NCBI GenBank assembly: GCA_965237685.1
Contig: CBDEGF010000003.1
Coordinates: 1,276,069-1,340,068, forward strand
From: Candidatus Marinacidobacterales bacterium
GTDB lineage: Bacteria; Acidobacteriota; Vicinamibacteria; Marinacidobacterales; SMYC01
Direction: 5' to 3'
DNA: 64,000 nt
In this document: positions 26,869 through 30,973 of the stretch, in pieces
Numbering within the stretch: position 1 is the first letter of the stretch
How the letters are laid out: each line of letters starts with the position of its first letter
Made by a program: the position numbers and the translations under genes
The notes under the pieces: generated by a model
The model's input: the letters and a program-made list of their open reading frames with translations, nothing else
The model's database searches: none
Told to the model about the DNA's origin: nothing

Positions 26869-27843
26869 GTGGTCATCGAAGGCGTCGTAACCGGGGACCT
26901 CATCGTGGCTGCGGGCGTCGTCGAGGTCAGCGGGCAGGTGCAGGGCGACGTTCTCTTCGCCGGGGGGCGGATCGAGATCACCGGCCGCGTCGACGGGAGC
27001 GTCCGTGGCTTCGGAGGCACCGTCGAGATCAAGGGAACCGTCGGTCGGAACGTTACGTTCTGCGGCAATGAGCTGCGACTGGAGCGCGATGGCCGGGTTC
27101 TGGGAAGCGTCATCGTTGCCGGCGAGACCTTCTTTCAGGAAGCCTCTGTGGAACGCGACATCCTCGTCGGCGCAACCAGACATGAGCTCCGGGGACGCAT
27201 CGGGGGCAACGCCCTCGTTGCCGGCGAGGAGCTGTCCATCGGACGAGACGCCGAGATCCTCGGGACGGTGACCTTCTACGGAAAGACTGAGCCCGAGGTG
27301 TCACCCGAAGCTCGCCTCTCGTCCGAAGTGACGTTCGAGAGCGTCGAGGAGCTCGACGACGACGACGGGAGCGGCGTGATCTCCTTCATGCTCAAGTGGG
27401 CGGCGGCGTTCCTGTTCGGCGCGGTGCTGGTGATTCTCGCACCTCGTTTTCGAGCGGCGGTCGCGGAGAACATATCCCCCTACGGTTGGGCCATGCTCGT
27501 CGGAGCGCTGGCTCTTCTGGCCATTCCGGTGACCGCGATCGTGGTGCTCTTGACCGTCGTCGGTATTCCGATTGCCATGGCGCTCCTGTTCATCTACGTC
27601 GTCAGCGTCTACGCCTCGCACATTTACGTCGGACACTGGATCGGCTCGGAGACACTCGGTCAGGCCGCGACTCTGACGCAACAGATGGGCCGACTGGCGC
27701 TGGGCCTGGCGCTCATCTACTTCAGCTCCCTCATCCCATACGCGGGGGTGCTCATCGAGGCCATCATCCTGATTTGGGGACTAGGAGCGATCGTCCGGAC
27801 GGTGTACGACGGCGTCCGGCGTGGGAGCTTGCAGACCGCGTAG
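26869..27843 (+). CDS. bactofilin-like (polymer-forming cytoskeletal, beta-helix) domain protein with a C-terminal polytopic membrane region. N-terminus uncertain.
   Basis: Repeating VxG beta-helix units (VVTGDLIVAAGVVEVSGQVQGDVLFAGGRIEITGRVDGSVRGFGGTVEIKGTVG...). The repeats already begin upstream of the first in-frame start (RYRLVAGETLDNDLIVAGE), so a frameshift or non-canonical start is likely. Confidence 0.5.
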   Translation: MVIEGVVTGDLIVAAGVVEVSGQVQGDVLFAGGRIEITGRVDGSVRGFGGTVEIKGTVGRNVTFCGNELRLERDGRVLGSVIVAGETFFQEASVERDILVGATRHELRGRIGGNALVAGEELSIGRDAEILGTVTFYGKTEPEVSPEARLSSEVTFESVEELDDDDGSGVISFMLKWAAAFLFGAVLVILAPRFRAAVAENISPYGWAMLVGALALLAIPVTAIVVLLTVVGIPIAMALLFIYVVSVYASHIYVGHWIGSETLGQAATLTQQMGRLALGLALIYFSSLIPYAGVLIEAIILIWGLGAIVRTVYDGVRRGSLQTA

Positions 27844-27885
27844 CGTCTCTTGACATGCTGGCCGTGATCGCGGACTCTGAAAGCG

Positions 27886-28347
27886 ATGTTCAAGTCCGTT
27901 CAAGAGTACTTCAGCGTTCGAATTTCGGTTGACGAGACACCACCGACGCTCGAGCAGATCCAGCTCGCCACCGCGGCACTTCTCATCGAGGTCTCGAGCA
28001 GCGACAACGAAGTCGCACCGGAAGAACGGGAAGCCATCCTCGACGCCTTGCAGTCGAGCTTCGGACTCGACGAATCGTCGACGCGTGAGCTGGTGGGGCT
28101 CGCCGAGAAGGCAGTACGGGAAACGATCTCCCTCTACGAGTTCACGCGCCTAGTCGACCGGAGCTTCTCACCGGAGCAGAAGAAGCACATCATCGGCCTG
28201 GCGTGGCAGGTGGCTTTTGCGGACGAACGGCTGGACGAGAACGAGGAGTACTTGATCCGAAAGCTCGCCACGTTGCTTCATGTGACCCACCCCGACTTCA
28301 TCGACGAGAAGCTGAAGGCGAAAGCCCAAACAAAAGAAAAAAGATAA
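27886..28347 (+). CDS. TerB-family (tellurite-resistance-like) protein
   Basis: ORF track. Amphipathic helical protein with ATAALLIEVSSSDNEVAPEEREAI and IIGLAWQVAFADERLDENEEYLIRKLA, matching the TerB pattern. Confidence 0.6.
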   Translation: MFKSVQEYFSVRISVDETPPTLEQIQLATAALLIEVSSSDNEVAPEEREAILDALQSSFGLDESSTRELVGLAEKAVRETISLYEFTRLVDRSFSPEQKKHIIGLAWQVAFADERLDENEEYLIRKLATLLHVTHPDFIDEKLKAKAQTKEKR

Positions 28348-28410
28348 CGCCTCCGGGCAGGGGCTCGGGCTTGGCGTGAAGCAGAATCGCGATCTCGAGA
28401 CAGAAGCTAG

Positions 28411-29487
28411 TCACGCTCCTGACGCGATCTGCTCCGCCACGAACTCCCCCACCTCTCGCGTCGAGCGAGCGGCGCCCTCTCCGGCGAGATCGGCGGTCAC
28501 GACACCCTGAGACAGCGCGGAGTGAACGGCCCTGTCGATGGCCTGCGCCTCGTCCTCGAGAGAGAACGCGTGACGCAGCATCATCGCCGCCGAGGCGATG
28601 GCCCCCATCGGGTTCGCAACACCCTTGCCCGCGATGTCCGGCGCCGAGCCGTGCACCGGCTCGAAGAGTCCGATCGAGCCGCCGATGCTGGCCGACGGCA
28701 ACAGGCCGAGTGAGCCTGCCAGCACCGAGGCTTCGTCGCTGAGAATGTCGCCAAACAGGTTCCCGGTGACGATGACGTCGAACTGCGACGGATTCGAGAC
28801 GATCTCCATCGCCGCGCGATCGACGTACATGTGGTCGAGCTCGATGTCGCTGTAGTCTCGCGCGACGTCGCGGACGACCTCGCGCCAGAGCTTCGAGCTT
28901 TCCAGAACGTTTGCCTTGTCGATCGACGTCACCCGGCGACGACGCCCGGACGCCGCATCAAAGGCGACGCGGGCGATCCGTTCGATCTCGTCGGCGCGAT
29001 AACTCAGCGTATCGAAGGCGCGGCGCTGGCTTCCCTCCCCCTCGACGCCCCGGGGCTCACCGAAATAGAGACCTCCGGTGAGCTCTCGAACGATGAGAAG
29101 GTCGACGCCCTCGAGAACTTCCTTCCGAAAAGGCGACGACACCGCTACGCTTCCGGAAGCCACCACGGGACGAAGGTTGGCGAAGCACGACAGAAAGCGC
29201 CGCAGCTCGAGGAGCGCAGCTTCCGGTCGATCGCGAGGAGGCAAATGGTCGTGCGCCGGGTTGCCGACAGCGCCCAGCAGAATGGCGCCGGTGTCACGAC
29301 AGGCCTCCCGGGTCTCGTCAGGAAAACCGGTGCCTGTCTCATCCAGGGCACAGCTGCCGAACAGATGCTCGCAGAGCCGGAGCTCGTGGCCGCCGGCCTC
29401 GGCCACGGCTTTCAGAACGGCGACGGCTTCCTCAGTGACTTCGGGCCCGATACCGTCACCGGGCAGAACGGTGACGTCTAGTATCAT
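28411..29487 (-). CDS. leuB: 3-isopropylmalate dehydrogenase
   Basis: ORF track 28411..29532. Start at MILDVTVLPGDGIGPEV (29487). IDKANVL, GSLGLLPSASIG, NLFGDILSDEAS motifs. Confidence 0.9.
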   Translation of the reverse strand: MILDVTVLPGDGIGPEVTEEAVAVLKAVAEAGGHELRLCEHLFGSCALDETGTGFPDETREACRDTGAILLGAVGNPAHDHLPPRDRPEAALLELRRFLSCFANLRPVVASGSVAVSSPFRKEVLEGVDLLIVRELTGGLYFGEPRGVEGEGSQRRAFDTLSYRADEIERIARVAFDAASGRRRRVTSIDKANVLESSKLWREVVRDVARDYSDIELDHMYVDRAAMEIVSNPSQFDVIVTGNLFGDILSDEASVLAGSLGLLPSASIGGSIGLFEPVHGSAPDIAGKGVANPMGAIASAAMMLRHAFSLEDEAQAIDRAVHSALSQGVVTADLAGEGAARSTREVGEFVAEQIASGA

Positions 29488-29513
29488 TGGGACGTGATTG
29501 GAAACATAAAGGT

Positions 29514-29537
29514 GGGGGGTGCCTCTGGGCACCCCCC
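29514..29537 (-). terminator. perfect 10-bp GC hairpin (GGGGGGTGCC-tctg-GGCACCCCCC) followed on the minus strand by ACCTTTATGTTT. It lies 26 nt upstream of the leuB start, so it is a candidate attenuator or leader terminator.
   Basis: Read directly from the sequence. Confidence 0.4.
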
Positions 29538-30181
29538 TTGTGCTCCAATAAGAGAAGCCAAGAGTTTATGTGGAGTTAAGGACGGGGAAAGTAAAACAGC
29601 AGGATAAATTAGCGGGTTCGGTCGATGGATGGTTAAGACCCGGCGTATTTACAATTACGGGTCTAATGTGGACCCCTGGCGGGACACCCCTACTGGAAGC
29701 ACAAACATGAAACATAGGATATAAGTTATTGTATTGGGTAGCCGTATAGTAATCGCCCTCCTATTTGATGTCAAGGTCGAAATCACGGCGAGGTCGCACA
29801 AAACTCGACGACCGTTCGTAACTTATTTACAAAAGGAGTGTTAATTAACGTGTTCGCTTTCGAACACGTTACTACTGCGTGTCGGTGAGCAAAGTTCGGT
29901 TTTCACAACGATGGGGCTTCGTAAACACCGGTTTCCCGAAACTACTTGATTTCAATGGGTGTTTTCCCTTACTATTGTCCCAGAGTCGAGATAGACAACT
30001 AGCTCAAACATCACCAGCGAGATTCTGACAACACGCACACCGCGTTCTTGACGCGCTTTTTCTAGCGCTCACGAAGGCTGGGCGCCCGGGGTCCAGGTGC
30101 GAGTCCACACTTCAGACCGACACAGCCGGCGTGTCACGCCCGCACCAGACCGACGTCCAGGAGCAGGATAAGGAGAAGAAG
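29538..30181. promoter_or_regulatory. 640-bp AT-rich (~47% GC vs ~65% background) non-coding leader or divergent promoter region between leuB and the NfeD-flotillin operon. It contains several palindromes.
   Basis: No ORF of 60 or more codons. Palindromes: AGACCCG-N16-CGGGTCT (29637-29666), a 24-bp perfect palindrome (29847-29870), and GTTTCccGAAAC (~29932). Confidence 0.5.
29847..29870. promoter_or_regulatory. 24-bp perfect palindrome AACGTGTTCGcttTCGAACACGTT. It is a candidate operator or hairpin.
   Basis: Read directly from the sequence. An AAGGAG lies 11 nt upstream and the GTG inside the palindrome opens a 12-codon ORF (VFAFEHVTTACR). Confidence 0.4.
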
Positions 30182-30973
30182 GTGCAGGAGTTTTTGGCGG
30201 CCATCATGGCCTTCCCGACAGCGGTTTTCACCGTGCTGTTGGGATTTGTCTTGCTGTACTGGTTTTCCGTGATCCTCGGTGTGCTCGATCTCGATTTCCT
30301 GGACAGCCTGTTGGGCCTCGACGCGGCGGAGGGCGCCCTGGATGGCGCCGTCGAAACTCTGGAGGGTGCCGCGGAGGGCGCCCTCGAAGGTGTCGGCGAG
30401 GCCCTGGACGGCGTGGACGGGGCCCTGGAAGGCGGGGCGGAGGCTGGCGAAGCCGGCGCCGCCGATACGGTCGAAGGCGCCAGAGGCCTGCTGCACGCCC
30501 TGGGTGTTCAAGGTGTTCCCATCACCTTTCTAGGGAGTTTCATCATTTTCTGGGCCTGGGTGATCAGTTTCTTCGTGATGCAGCTTATCGGCGGTCCTGC
30601 CGCGTCGGGCGCGATGGGCGCGGTCATCGGCATCGGGGTCGCCTTCTTCGGGGTCGCCGCGGGCGTCGTCCTCGGTGCGTTGTGCGTGCGACCGTTGAGC
30701 GGGCTGTGCAAAGTGCACCAGGCTCCCGGGCGTGCTTCGCTCGTAGGAAAAATGTGCACCGTAACGTCTCTACGCGTGGACGCCAGTTCCGGCCAGGCGG
30801 AGATCGACAACGGGGGCGCCGGGGTCGTGGCAGAGGTGCGCTGTCTTCAGACCAACGATCTTGTGAAGGGCTCCCAGGCCCTCGTGTTCAAATACGACGC
30901 TTCCAAGGAGGTCTTTCATATCGGCCCGGTCGATCGGGCGATCACCGAAGTGGAGCGGCTTACGACCGACTGA
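30182..30973 (+). CDS. NfeD/YqiJ-like membrane protein (three TM helices plus a C-terminal OB-fold) with a Gly/Ala/Glu-rich repeat loop
   Basis: ORF track 30131..30973 (GTG). GTG 30182 is preferred because AAGGAG sits 5 nt upstream. TM helices, then ASLVGKMCTVTSLRVDASSGQAEIDNGGAGVVAEVRCLQTNDLVKGSQALVFKYD (NfeD-type OB beta-barrel). The stop is 19 nt before the flotillin start. Confidence 0.7.
   Translation: MQEFLAAIMAFPTAVFTVLLGFVLLYWFSVILGVLDLDFLDSLLGLDAAEGALDGAVETLEGAAEGALEGVGEALDGVDGALEGGAEAGEAGAADTVEGARGLLHALGVQGVPITFLGSFIIFWAWVISFFVMQLIGGPAASGAMGAVIGIGVAFFGVAAGVVLGALCVRPLSGLCKVHQAPGRASLVGKMCTVTSLRVDASSGQAEIDNGGAGVVAEVRCLQTNDLVKGSQALVFKYDASKEVFHIGPVDRAITEVERLTTD

What the first reader, a model, noticed from the sequence alone, without database searches (positions are those of the whole stretch)
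29538..30181. AT-rich 640-bp non-coding island with a 24-bp perfect palindrome upstream of the operon and divergent from leuB
GC drops from ~65% to below 50% across the island, with no ORF. It contains several palindromes:
- AACGTGTTCGcttTCGAACACGTT (29847-29870), a perfect 10+10 palindrome;
- AGACCCG-N16-CGGGTCT;
- GTTTCccGAAAC.

This is the size and composition of a complex regulatory leader or a non-coding RNA gene. The perfect palindrome looks like a dimeric transcription-factor operator.

A 12-codon ORF with an AAGGAG RBS starts inside the palindrome.
Basis: seen in the sequence. Interest (0 to 1): 0.55.

Follow-up and report, generated by a model that had tools for sequence, protein, structure and literature searches.

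The report
Conserved structured leader RNA before leuB
The AT-rich gap holds a previously undescribed, strongly conserved folded RNA of about 235 bases, with a small built-in reading frame and a terminator, that sits directly in front of the leucine-synthesis gene leuB in a group of soil Acidobacteria; the eye-catching perfect palindrome lies outside it and is not conserved.

Summary
The AT-rich island and its palindromes are real, but the 24-bp palindrome is not the main feature.

**Layout of the island.** It is a divergent promoter region.

**Minus strand.** A near-consensus promoter (TTGACA-17-TACTAT, 29774-29746) drives a ~235-nt RNA. The RNA ends in a G+C-rich terminator hairpin (29537-29514), 26 nt before the leuB ATG (29487).
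- The same RNA precedes leuB in all 29 related loci recovered, one of them a Vicinamibacteria MAG.
- It contains an invariant C-rich single-stranded core.
- It carries a 48-51-codon ORF whose frame, start and stop position are conserved, but whose amino acids are not.
- Rfam, protein searches and the literature give no match.

**Most likely function (about 0.5).** A uORF-type transcription attenuator of leuB. The main rival is an independent or dual-function sRNA, because leuB in most relatives appears to have its own promoter next to its ATG.

**Plus strand.** A conserved promoter (29946-29975) and a ~200-nt 5' UTR serve the divergent operon.

**The palindrome (29846-29871).** It lies midway between the two promoters, has no counterpart in any relative, and occurs only once in the window.

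The parts
29769..29774 (-). -35 hexamer TTGACA of the promoter of the leuB-upstream RNA
   Evidence: The promoter scan gives TTGACA-17-TACTAT, 10 of 12 matches. CTTGACA is conserved in nearly all related loci.
29746..29751 (-). -10 hexamer TACTAT (TAGTAT in most relatives)
   Evidence: The inferred start site is near 29739-29743.
29503..29740 (-). The conserved structured RNA (leader or sRNA), about 235 nt from the inferred start site to the end of the terminator tail
   Evidence: - nhmmer and covariance-model hits: 210 bits in the window, 158-268 bits in full-length copies in relatives, one copy per locus.
- Folding: MFE -69 kcal/mol, z = -3.39.
- No Rfam match.
29729..29740 (-). Conserved C/A-rich 5' end (UACCCAAYACAA), followed by an A/U-rich tract without a Shine-Dalgarno sequence, up to the AUG
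   Evidence: Nearly invariant columns 5-14 of alignment A3. Coordinates.
29566..29715 (-). 49-codon upstream ORF (MFHVCASS...HPSTEPA...PVLNST*)
   Evidence: - The ATG is invariant.
- The ORF is open and 48-51 codons long in 24 of 27 loci that contain the whole ORF.
- Indels are multiples of 3 or compensated pairs.
- pS is about equal to pN, about 0.29.
- No protein homologue was found.
29688..29702 (-). Helix A, 5' strand (GUGC UUCCAGUAGGG), inside codons 5-10 of the ORF
   Evidence: RNAalifold and pair counts: 7 of 10 pairs show compensatory changes and 93.6% of cells are paired. The GUG/CAC extension appears in single-sequence MFE folds.
29540..29553 (-). Helix A, 3' strand (UCUUAUUGGAG CAC), 2 nt before the terminator
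29672..29680 (-). Helix B, 5' strand (GCCAGGGGU)
   Evidence: 5 of 9 pairs show compensatory change and 97.5% of cells are paired.
29557..29565 (-). Helix B, 3' strand (ACUCUUGGC), starting directly after the ORF stop codon (29568-29566)
   Evidence: The stop codon lies 0-4 nt before this strand in the family members with an intact ORF, even where the frame has shifted.
29636..29664 (-).
   Evidence: Columns 100-106 pair with 122-128. AU/GC/GU and UA/CG exchanges occur in 6-9 sequences.
29612..29633 (-). Invariant single-stranded core ACCAUCCAUCGACCGAACCCGC, the start of a G-poor unpaired stretch of about 75 nt
   Evidence: The core is nearly identical in the 10 loci found through LeuB alone, including at four-fold degenerate codon positions. 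It is unpaired in the consensus fold.
29566..29588 (-). Conserved end of the ORF: a cluster rich in branched-chain codons (family consensus I-I-N-L-V-L-N-N-S-T-stop; P-V-L-N-S-T-stop in the window)
   Evidence: - I/L/V make up 48% of this 8-codon segment against 17% in the rest of the peptide.
- The Leu codon four to five codons before the stop varies synonymously, CUA/CUU/CUG.
29502..29537 (-). Intrinsic-terminator hairpin GGGGGGUGCC-caga-GGCACCCCCC with tail ACCUUUAUGUUU
   Evidence: Terminator scan. 100% of cells are paired, with 3 compensated pairs. Hairpin energy is -20 to -27 kcal/mol in all members. U-tract quality varies between loci.
28411..29487 (-). leuB (3-isopropylmalate dehydrogenase). 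The true start is ATG 29487, not the called GTG 29532
   Evidence: TIGR00169 equivalog, 469 bits against a cut-off of 353. Pfam Iso_dh. The start aligns with relatives.
29846..29871 (.). Perfect 11+4+11 palindrome TAACGTGTTCG-cttt-CGAACACGTTA, in the non-conserved spacer between the two divergent promoters
   Evidence: The palindrome is real and non-random. It is not conserved and has no other copy in the window.
29946..29975 (+). Promoter of the divergent operon: TTGATT (29946-29951), 18 nt, TACTAT (29970-29975)
   Evidence: CTTGA and the TA..AT of the -10 are invariant in seven aligned loci (six distinct) that keep the divergent operon.
29982..30181 (+). 5' UTR of about 200 nt for the operon (263/280-aa membrane protein, SPFH protein, DUF3686 AAA ATPase), ending in AAGGAG and GTG 30182
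   Evidence: Length (185-210 nt) and a C/A-rich block are conserved in relatives. No supported consensus structure was found.

Best explanation
The island is a divergent promoter region. Its dominant element is a leuB-specific leader RNA on the minus strand.

**Anatomy (shown).**
- A strong sigma-70-type promoter starts a ~235-nt transcript.
- An unstructured C/A- and A/U-rich 5' end carries an invariant AUG that opens a 49-codon upstream ORF.
- ORF codons 5-15 form the 5' strands of two long-range helices (A and B). Their 3' strands lie immediately after the ORF stop codon and 2 nt before a very stable terminator hairpin.
- These helices enclose hairpin C and a 75-nt G-poor single strand with an invariant 22-nt core.
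- leuB starts 26 nt after the hairpin.

**Proposed mechanism (inferred).** This is ribosome-mediated transcription attenuation.
- The first ribosome loads while the RNA is still being made. Once helix A closes, 11 nt after the AUG, further loading is blocked.
- If that ribosome runs to the stop codon, it covers the 3' strand of helix B. If no ribosome is present, helices A and B form. In both cases the terminator forms and a ~235-nt RNA is released.
- If the ribosome is slowed at the Ile/Leu/Val-rich codons just before the stop, the pyrimidine-rich 3' strands stay free to pair with the G-run of the terminator's 5' arm. More polymerase then reads into leuB.

**What is shown and what is inferred.** The RNA, its fold, the conserved frame and the exclusive link to leuB are shown. 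The sensing step and the antiterminator are inferred.

**Rest of the island.** It holds the conserved promoter and 200-nt 5' UTR of the divergent operon. Between the two promoters is a non-conserved spacer that carries the 24-bp palindrome.
For: - **Promoter and terminator.** Both are found on the minus strand.
- **Conservation pattern.** In the nearest relative, only the stretch from promoter to terminator is conserved, although the upstream gene differs.
- **Link to leuB.** The element occurs in 29 loci (31 covariance-model hits). It is always upstream of leuB and in the same orientation wherever downstream sequence exists. Each locus has one copy. No copy was found in the distant leuB loci searched, 80 by nhmmer and 32 by the covariance model.
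- **Fold.** 96.5% of cells are paired and 19 pairs show compensatory change, against 9.4 in shuffles (0 of 500). Paired cells drop to 37-61% when partners are slid. Helices A, B and the terminator are recovered in most single-sequence folds. The window RNA folds with z = -3.39.
- **uORF.**
  - The ATG is invariant within a variable region.
  - 24 of 27 loci that contain the whole ORF have an open 48-51-codon frame.
  - Indels are 3n, or compensated: a -1/-2 pair in L116, L110 and L140, and -1/+1 pairs in L093 and L138.
  - The stop codon stays 0-4 nt before helix B, even after a frame change.
  - pS and pN are both about 0.29, and all three codon positions have equal entropy. Translation therefore seems to be selected, not the peptide.
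- **Branched-chain codons.** They are 2.9 times enriched in the 8 codons before the last 4-5 codons. The conserved Leu codon varies synonymously.
- **Antiterminator potential.** The 3' strand of helix B can pair with the terminator G-run in 93% of cells.
- **No room for an independent leuB promoter with a -35 in the window.** Only 26 nt separate the terminator stem from the leuB ATG.
Against: - **No antiterminator supported by covariation.** The pairing between helix B's 3' strand and the terminator is mostly G-U and barely beats slid or shuffled controls. The terminator remains the MFE structure under every ribosome-blocking constraint tried.
- **Few control codons.** Each ORF has only 2-9 Leu codons, with no run. 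The window copy has just Val-Leu before the stop, and L084 has Phe at the conserved Leu position. The branched-chain segment was chosen after looking at the data.
- **Unusual geometry.** The putative control codons do not overlap a strand of helix A or B, unlike classical attenuators.
- **Possible separate leuB promoter.** In most relatives a conserved TGnTAnnnT motif lies 5-10 nt before the leuB ATG. It looks like an extended -10 promoter for a leaderless leuB mRNA. In addition, up to 225 nt of unrelated DNA or second hairpins can separate the terminator from leuB. leuB may therefore not depend on read-through.
- **Unexplained core.** The invariant C-rich core is not accounted for by a pure ribosome-stalling model.
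Confidence: 0.5

Rival explanations
1. The RNA is an independent, highly expressed small RNA, possibly dual-function or attenuator-derived, that merely keeps synteny with leuB. It has its own promoter and terminator. Its long C-rich single strand with the invariant core would be a seed region that pairs with other mRNAs or binds a protein. leuB would be transcribed separately as a leaderless mRNA.
For: - It has a near-consensus promoter and a very stable terminator of its own.
- A conserved TGnTAnnnT motif lies 5-10 nt before the leuB ATG in most clades. Spacers range from 26 to 225 nt and some carry second hairpins.
- No antiterminator could be demonstrated.
- The 75-nt G-poor unpaired region and invariant core are displayed between strong helices.
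- The block leuB-TerB-DUF8173-ECF sigma is syntenic anyway.
- There is a precedent for a terminated attenuator RNA acting in trans: rnTrpL (PMC6614838, listed).
Against: - The conserved reading frame with no amino-acid selection is hard to explain for a plain sRNA.
- The RNA is upstream of leuB in the same orientation in every locus with downstream sequence, while the gene on its other side changes at least six times.
- In the window and in L082 there is no TGnTAnnnT motif and only 26-27 nt between hairpin and ATG.
- No significant pairing with the leuB start region was found. Other targets could not be searched.
Confidence: 0.3
2. The RNA is a riboswitch-like leader. The junction formed by helices A, B and C, together with the invariant core, binds a metabolite of the leucine pathway, uncharged tRNA-Leu or a regulatory protein. 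The ORF is secondary.
For: - Covarying helices surround invariant unpaired nucleotides, which is the usual aptamer signature.
- The core is conserved at the nucleotide level, not the codon level.
- The element is associated exclusively with one biosynthetic gene.
- A terminator directly follows the closing helix.
Against: - The whole 'aptamer' lies inside a frame-conserved ORF, which is unusual for riboswitches.
- The 75-nt conserved segment is G-poor and cannot form internal helices.
- No expression-platform alternative pairing was found.
- No T-box or any other Rfam family matches, even at E = 10.
Confidence: 0.1
3. One reading: the 24-bp perfect palindrome is the operator of a dimeric transcription factor that controls the plus-strand operon and/or leuB, and it is the key feature of the island.
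For: - A perfect 11+4+11 dyad is not expected by chance.
- It lies almost exactly midway between the two divergent promoters, 87 and 90 nt from the centres of their -35 boxes.
Against: - No counterpart exists in any related locus, including six that keep the same divergent gene pair and both promoters.
- At about -120 from both inferred start sites, it is outside the usual operator or activator positions.
- There is no second copy or half-site cluster in 64 kb.
- The motif GTTC-N6-GAAC does not fit the Gram-positive LexA box GAAC-N4-GTTC (own knowledge).
- It could instead be a recent local duplication-inversion or a hairpin with no function.
Confidence: 0.15
4. The conserved ORF encodes a functional 49-residue protein, and the RNA is simply its mRNA.
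For: The open frame, invariant ATG and conserved stop are present in 24 of 27 loci that contain the whole ORF. An HPSTEPA block and a VLNNST C-terminus recur.
Against: - pN is about equal to pS, and all three codon positions have equal entropy.
- Four-fold degenerate sites in the HPSTEPA block are invariant, while the replacements seen are non-synonymous (L082, L141).
- The C-terminus changes by frameshift in one clade while the nucleotides stay the same.
- There is no homologue among 5.8 billion protein clusters and no Pfam or NCBIfam hit.
- Gene callers never call this ORF.
Confidence: 0.03

Closest known systems
Leader-peptide (uORF) transcription attenuators of branched-chain amino-acid genes, e.g. 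the ilvB-II uORF motif of Corynebacterium (PMC10272879) and the enterobacterial leu leader (Rfam RF00512)
   Same: - A conserved in-frame start and stop upstream of one biosynthetic gene.
- Lengths divisible by three.
- Ile/Leu/Val codons concentrated near the end of the uORF.
- An intrinsic terminator hairpin before the structural gene.
- One copy per locus.
   Different: - The uORF is about 50 codons rather than 15-28, and has no run of Leu codons.
- The covariation-supported fold is a pair of long-range helices that clamps ORF codons 5-15 to the region after the stop codon.
- It has an invariant 22-nt C-rich core.
- No antiterminator could be demonstrated.
- There is no sequence or covariance-model similarity to any Rfam leader.
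mgtA/mgtCBR-type leaders (structured 5' leaders with embedded short ORFs whose translation chooses between alternative folds and exposes C-rich Rho-loading sites); comparison from own knowledge
   Same: A long structured leader with an ORF inside the structure, and a C-rich, G-poor unpaired stretch.
   Different: Those leaders act through Rho and sense Mg2+ or proline. Here an intrinsic terminator is present, the gene is leuB, and no alternative fold was found.
rnTrpL of Sinorhizobium meliloti, an attenuator-derived trans-acting sRNA (PMC6614838)
   Same: A terminated leader with a small ORF upstream of a single amino-acid biosynthesis gene whose pathway partners lie elsewhere. This could explain why an unpaired sequence is so conserved.
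   Different: rnTrpL is about 110 nt with a 14-codon trpL carrying Trp codons. Trans targets for the present RNA are unknown and were not testable here.
Riboswitches and T-box leaders
   Same: Covarying helices around invariant nucleotides, a location upstream of a biosynthetic gene, and a terminator as the possible read-out.
   Different: No Rfam hit and no T-box sequence. The aptamer-like region lies inside a translated-looking ORF, and the conserved segment is unstructured.

Membership tests
uORF / leader-peptide transcription attenuator | Conserved start codon in frame with a conserved stop, with lengths divisible by three, upstream of a consistent gene | tested here: met
   - The ATG is invariant, and 24 of 27 loci that contain the whole ORF have an open 48-51-codon frame.
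- Indels are 3n or compensated.
- leuB is downstream in every locus with sequence.
uORF / leader-peptide transcription attenuator | Enrichment of codons for the cognate amino acid(s) at the regulatory position | tested here: inconclusive
   I/L/V make up 48% of the 8 codons before the last 4-5 codons against 17% elsewhere. However, there are only 1-2 Leu codons there, no run, the window copy has only V-L, and the segment was chosen post hoc.
uORF / leader-peptide transcription attenuator | Intrinsic terminator between the uORF and the structural gene | tested here: met
   The hairpin is present in all members, with 100% of cells paired and compensatory changes. The U-tract is good in about half and poor in the rest.
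uORF / leader-peptide transcription attenuator | Mutually exclusive antiterminator whose formation depends on ribosome position | tested here: inconclusive
   The pairing between helix B's 3' strand and the terminator's 5' arm is possible in 93% of cells, but it is G-U-rich and barely above controls. Three other alternative helices show no covariation. The terminator persists in constrained folds.
uORF / leader-peptide transcription attenuator | Regulated read-through in response to amino-acid supply | not testable with these tools
   Needs Term-seq, reporter assays or in vitro coupled assays.
Rfam Leu_leader, T-box, or any other curated RNA family | Match to the family covariance model | tested here: not met
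   No hit at gathering thresholds in 64 kb. No relevant hit at E <= 10 in 29400-30300.
Riboswitch | Conserved structured domain with covariation and invariant junction nucleotides in a 5' leader | tested here: met
Riboswitch | Untranslated aptamer with an expression platform that shares nucleotides with the aptamer | tested here: not met
   The domain lies inside a frame-conserved ORF. No shared-strand alternative pairing was found.
Riboswitch | Direct ligand binding | not testable with these tools
   Requires in-line probing or ITC.
Trans-acting sRNA | Own promoter and own terminator, expressed as a discrete small transcript | tested here: inconclusive
   Conserved promoter and terminator motifs are present. 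No transcript data are available.
Trans-acting sRNA | Conserved complementarity to target mRNAs | tested here: inconclusive
   Only the leuB start region could be tested, and it gave no signal (z about 0). Other targets are not available.
Transcription-factor operator (the 24-bp palindrome) | Dyad symmetry beyond chance | tested here: met
Transcription-factor operator (the 24-bp palindrome) | Conservation at the orthologous position, or recurrence in a regulon | tested here: not met
   There is no counterpart in relatives and no second copy in the window. A genome-wide search was not possible.
Transcription-factor operator (the 24-bp palindrome) | Position overlapping or adjacent to a promoter | tested here: not met
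   Its centre, 29858.5, is 87 and 90 nt from the centres of the two -35 boxes, about -120 from each inferred start site.

The most novel reading that the evidence does not exclude
The RNA is more than a codon-counting attenuator. Helices A and B display a 75-nt G-poor platform with an invariant 22-nt core (ACCAUCCAUCGACCGAACCCGC). Something other than the translating ribosome would read that platform: a leucine-pathway metabolite, tRNA-Leu, a dedicated RNA-binding protein or Rho. Alternatively, the terminated 235-nt product could act in trans on the unlinked leu genes. Either case would be a new class of leucine-pathway riboregulator, in a phylum where almost no RNA regulation has been characterised.
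Probability: 0.2. Interest if true: 0.8.

Novelty: new variant of a known kind. Interest (0 to 1): 0.55.

Why it matters
- **Undescribed RNA family.** The RNA has no Rfam, protein-database or literature match. It is tied to one enzyme of leucine synthesis in Vicinamibacteria-like Acidobacteriota, abundant soil bacteria whose gene regulation is almost unstudied.
- **Unusual architecture.** The ORF is selected for being read rather than for its product. It is threaded through a long-range RNA clamp and an invariant unpaired core. This does not fit the textbook attenuator, so it may show a different way of coupling translation to termination, or an attenuator that doubles as an sRNA.
- **Annotation fixes.** The called leuB start (GTG 29532) lies inside the terminator hairpin. 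The intergenic 'gap' is two transcription units, not empty DNA.
- **A caution for sequence scanning.** The most conspicuous sequence feature, a perfect palindrome, was the least supported one.

Tried and rejected
- **Rfam and tRNA scans.** Rfam at gathering thresholds over the whole window, and at E <= 10 over 29400-30300, gave only a meaningless bxd_2 hit. ARAGORN found no tRNA or tmRNA.
- **LeuB search of GTDB species genomes.** Hits reached only <=55% identity, from other phyla, and none carried the element.
- **Exact look-up of the 358-aa LeuB.** It failed because the database copy uses the wrong GTG start.
- **Protein reading of the uORF.**
  - No homologue to a 15-sequence profile among 5.8 billion clusters.
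  - No NCBIfam hit.
  - pN/pS is about 1.
- **Alternative RNA pairings.** These were tested and not supported by covariation:
  - ORF end with helix A's 3' strand.
  - 5' CA-rich end with the UUGUGU tract.
  - Helix A's 5' strand with the Leu-Val codons.
  - Helix B's 3' strand with the terminator G-run, which is only weakly compatible.
- **Constrained folds mimicking ribosome positions.** They never removed the terminator. Truncated folds gave no consistent partner for the G-run.
- **Pairing of the C-rich region with the leuB start region.** z is about 0.
- **Second copy of the RNA.** None in the window.
- **The palindrome.**
  - No relaxed copies or half-sites in the window.
  - No analogous dyad in about 20 related loci.
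  - No blastn similarity of 29786-30185 to any related locus other than L081, the second assembly of this same region.
  - A LexA-box reading was rejected because the half-site order and spacing differ (own knowledge).
- **Leaderless promoter motif.** A scan for TGnTAnnnT-ATG elsewhere in the window found none.
- **Taxonomy.** Cluster names gave no taxonomy for the source.
- **Literature.** Searches for a leuB motif, leader or riboswitch returned nothing.
Full report
**1. The observation**

GC drops from 0.62-0.70 in the flanks to 0.43-0.52 across about 29500-30000.

The perfect palindrome is at 29847-29870 and extends to 11+4+11 at 29846-29871. No shuffle of the window reproduces it even with three mismatches. 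As single-stranded DNA it folds with z = -4.3.

AGACCCG (29636-29642) and CGGGTCT (29658-29664) are present with a 15-nt spacer. GTTTC-cc-GAAAC is at 29931-29942. The 12-codon GTG ORF (29850-29888) lies 11 nt after an AAGGAG.

'No ORF' is not correct. A 49-codon ATG ORF runs from 29715 to 29566 on the minus strand.

**2. What flanks the island**

- *Minus strand.* ORF 28411-29487 is leuB (Pfam Iso_dh, E = 1e-131; NCBIfam TIGR00169 equivalog, 469 bits against a cut-off of 353). Public annotation starts it at GTG 29532 (373 aa). Alignment with relatives puts the start at ATG 29487.
- *Plus strand.* There is an operon of a membrane protein with no family hit, an SPFH/Band-7 protein and a 1792-aa DUF3686 AAA ATPase. 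Its first gene most likely starts at GTG 30182 (VQEFL...), after AAGGAG.

**3. A transcription unit on the minus strand**

The consensus scan finds one promoter-like site, TTGACA-17-TACTAT at 29774-29746. It also finds one minus-strand terminator-like hairpin, GGGGGGTGCC-caga-GGCACCCCCC at 29537-29514, followed by ACCTTTATGT. Together they delimit a ~235-nt transcript that ends 26 nt before the leuB ATG. Rfam finds nothing here, and there is no tRNA or tmRNA.

**4. Relatives**

A LeuB-based scan of GTDB species genomes gave only distant hits, at <=55% identity. The large protein collection gave closer ones, at 63-77%, and I fetched their contigs.

The nearest relative (L082, 77% LeuB identity) has a different gene upstream (OprB) but an equally long gap. 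Only the stretch from promoter to terminator is alignable, at about 80% identity. The palindrome region is not alignable. Four further LeuB-derived loci show the same pattern.

A single metagenome scan with the most conserved 21-mer returned 52 loci. By nhmmer, 19 of them carry the whole element. Five more LeuB-derived loci also carry it, including a divergent one (L141) and a MAG labelled Vicinamibacteria (L142).

In every locus with downstream sequence, leuB follows in the same orientation, 26-225 nt after the hairpin. The gene on the other side varies: OprB, a small AAA protein, PspA, a transposase, a TPR-histidine kinase, or the same divergent operon as in the window.

A covariance model built from 22 sequences finds exactly one copy per locus. 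Scores are 158-268 bits for full-length copies, 210 bits in the window, and 202 bits in L142, which was not used for training. It finds no copy in 32 distant leuB loci and no second copy in the window.

**5. The RNA fold**

RNAalifold on the 22-sequence alignment (A3) predicts these elements:
- *Helix A.* Window 29702-29688 pairs with 29553-29540.
- *Helix B.* 29680-29672 pairs with 29565-29557.
- *The terminator.*

Support for this structure:

| Measure | Result |
|---|---|
| Cells paired | 96.5% |
| Pairs with compensatory change | 19 of 39 (shuffle mean 9.4; 0 of 500 shuffles reach it) |
| Cells paired when partners are slid | 37-61% |

Helices A, B and the terminator are recovered in most single-sequence MFE folds. 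The window RNA folds with z = -3.39.

Between hairpin C and the 3' strand of helix B lies a G-poor unpaired stretch of about 75 nt. It opens with an almost invariant core, ACCAUCCAUCGACCGAACCCGC (29633-29612), and ends with the conserved AACCUCGUCCUAAACAACUCCACAUAA block.

**6. The embedded ORF**

*Frame conservation.* An invariant ATG sits in an otherwise variable A/U-rich tract. It opens a frame of 48-51 codons in 24 of 27 loci that contain the whole ORF. L098 has a frameshift, L100 a premature stop, and L094 has lost its stop and runs five codons further. Length differences are multiples of three, or compensated:
- a -1 and a -2 deletion in the L116/L110/L140 clade;
- -1/+1 pairs a few nucleotides apart in L093 and L138.

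Where a 1-nt deletion near the end changes the frame, a stop in the new frame occurs 3 nt later. The stop therefore stays 0-4 nt before helix B's 3' strand. The other two frames carry on average about 1.7 and 2.4 stops over the same span.

*No amino-acid selection.* Mean pS is 0.296 and mean pN 0.294, and the three codon positions have equal entropy. In the HPSTEPA block, the four-fold degenerate positions are invariant, while the changes that do occur (L082, L141) replace amino acids. No protein in 5.8 billion clusters resembles the peptide, and gene callers never call it.

So the sequence is constrained as RNA, and the frame is constrained as something that must be read through to a fixed end point.

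*Codon content.* The 8 codons before the last 4-5 codons are 48% Ile/Leu/Val against 17% for the rest of the peptide (family consensus I-I-N-L-V-L-N-N-S-T-stop). The Leu codon four to five codons before the stop varies synonymously (CUA, CUU, CUG). I chose this segment after seeing the data. The window copy has only Val-Leu there.

**7. Mechanism**

The features of a uORF-type attenuator are present: a conserved start and stop, lengths divisible by three, a consistent downstream biosynthetic gene, and a terminator. These are the criteria used for the ilvB-II and other uORF motifs (PMC10272879, PMC11109978).

The geometry suggests a ribosome-position switch:
- A ribosome at the stop codon would cover helix B's 3' strand.
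- A ribosome held at the Ile/Leu/Val codons 12-30 nt earlier would leave the pyrimidine-rich 3' strands free. These can pair with the G-run of the terminator's 5' arm in 93% of cells.

That pairing is weak, however. It is mostly G-U, -4 to -21 kcal/mol against -20 to -27 for the terminator, and scarcely better than shuffled or slid controls. Three other candidate alternative helices show no covariation. The terminator survives every constrained fold. The sensing step is therefore inference.

**8. The main rival**

In most clades a conserved TGnTAnnnT lies 5-10 nt before the leuB ATG, for example TGATACCAT-N8-ATG, TGGTAATAAT-N6-ATG or TGCTAAAAT-N8-ATG. leuB there has no Shine-Dalgarno sequence. 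Spacers reach 225 nt and include unrelated DNA or second hairpins. This looks like an extended -10 promoter for a leaderless leuB mRNA.

If so, the RNA may be a separate unit: an sRNA with a C-rich seed, or an attenuator remnant acting in trans like rnTrpL (PMC6614838). Three points argue against that:
- the frame conservation;
- the unbroken co-orientation with leuB;
- the window and L082, where that motif is absent and the hairpin is 26-27 nt from the ATG.

Pairing of the C-rich region with the leuB start region is not above chance.

I put the cis-attenuator reading at about 0.5, the independent or dual-function sRNA at about 0.3, a ligand-, tRNA- or protein-sensing leader at about 0.1, and a small-protein gene at about 0.03.

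**9. The rest of the island**

In the seven aligned loci (six distinct) that keep the divergent operon, the only conserved blocks on that side are:
- a promoter, CTTGAT-N18-TAnnAT (window TTGATT 29946-29951 and TACTAT 29970-29975);
- a 185-210-nt 5' UTR with a C/A-rich block (ACCACAACCGGCACA.CCACAAC in relatives, degenerate in the window);
- the AAGGAG-GTG start.

RNAalifold gives no supported structure for this UTR.

The 170 nt between the two -35 boxes are not alignable in any pair. The palindrome sits there, 87 and 90 nt from the two -35 centres. None of about 20 related loci has any dyad of 8 nt or more at a comparable place. blastn with 29786-30185 finds only the second assembly of this same region, L081. 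The window has no second copy or half-site cluster.

The palindrome is therefore real and non-random but has no comparative support. A strain-specific factor site cannot be excluded. The 12-codon ORF lies between the divergent promoters and is not conserved. GTTTCccGAAAC lies just upstream of the plus-strand -35 and is not conserved either.

**10. Novelty and verdict**

No Rfam family, protein family or paper in the searchable library describes this element. In kind it is a uORF-containing leader with a terminator, which is a known kind. Its architecture is unusual:
- a 50-codon frame with no amino-acid selection;
- a long-range clamp joining early codons to the region after the stop;
- an invariant unpaired core;
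- a possible separate promoter for the downstream gene.

I rate it a new variant of a known kind, of moderate to good interest for bacterial RNA biology.

Noticed in passing
window 29488-29532 (minus strand): The public gene call for leuB (373 aa, GTG 29532) starts inside the loop of the terminator hairpin. Alignment with relatives puts the real start at ATG 29487 (358 aa). leuB has no Shine-Dalgarno sequence.
   Followed up: partly
related loci L083, L088, L089, L093, L094, L097, L109-L111, L116, L121, L126, L138, L140, L142: 5-10 nt before the leuB ATG: A conserved TGnTAnnnT motif lies at a fixed distance from the leuB start, whatever the spacer length (26-225 nt). It looks like an extended -10 promoter for a leaderless leuB mRNA. 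It is absent from the window and L082, where TATGTT/CATACT in the terminator tail may serve instead.
   Followed up: partly
L081 about 2258-2293 (second assembly of the same genome region, ENA ERZ26167216 ctg493835) compared with window 29746-29763: L081 carries an 18-bp tandem duplication, TAGGAGGGCGATTACTAT x2, that doubles the -10 box of the RNA's promoter. It also has one A-to-G change in the conserved 5' CA-rich motif. This is strain-level or assembly-level variation in the promoter.
   Followed up: no
window 29946-30181 (plus strand) and L084, L110, L111, L121, L125, L139: A conserved promoter and a ~200-nt 5' UTR precede the operon of membrane protein, SPFH protein and DUF3686 AAA ATPase. 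In relatives the UTR has a C/A-rich block (ACCACAACCGGCACA.CCACAAC), a small CGATAGCTTTCTATCG hairpin, and possible pairing of CCGGCAC with the GTGCAGG start region. The window copy is degenerate in these blocks.
   Followed up: partly
window 30041-30064 (plus strand): A terminator-like hairpin, CGCGTTCTTGACGCG followed by CTTTTTCTAG, lies inside the 5' UTR of the plus-strand operon, about 120 nt before its start codon. It is not seen in relatives. It could be a strain-specific attenuator or chance.
   Followed up: no
window 30131-30184: The first operon gene is called from GTG 30131 (280 aa). However, conservation starts at VQEFL (GTG 30182, preceded by AAGGAG), and L084 has a stop codon just upstream. 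The protein is probably 263 aa.
   Followed up: partly
L140 1-1130: In this 8.1-Mb genome an ISL3 transposase and a Y1 (IS200/RAYT-type) transposase with REP-like hairpins lie directly upstream of the RNA. They replace its -35 region, and only a CAGTAT -10 remains.
   Followed up: no
window 26869-29487 and loci L081-L085, L138-L142: The gene block leuB, TerB-domain protein, DUF8173/bactofilin-like protein and ECF sigma factor is syntenic across the whole clade. The window and L081 keep only leuB, TerB and DUF8173. The gene upstream of the RNA changes repeatedly.
   Followed up: no
L126, L111/L125, L115, L116/L140: spacer after the terminator: Several relatives carry a second hairpin just after the first terminator. 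In some it is a partial duplicate of the terminator, and in some it has its own T-run. This suggests tandem termination.
   Followed up: no
window 29636-29664 and clade of L088 (hairpin C followed by UUUU): In one clade, hairpin C is 9-12 G+C-rich pairs followed by UCUUUUCC. It resembles a pause or weak termination signal in the middle of the uORF.
   Followed up: no
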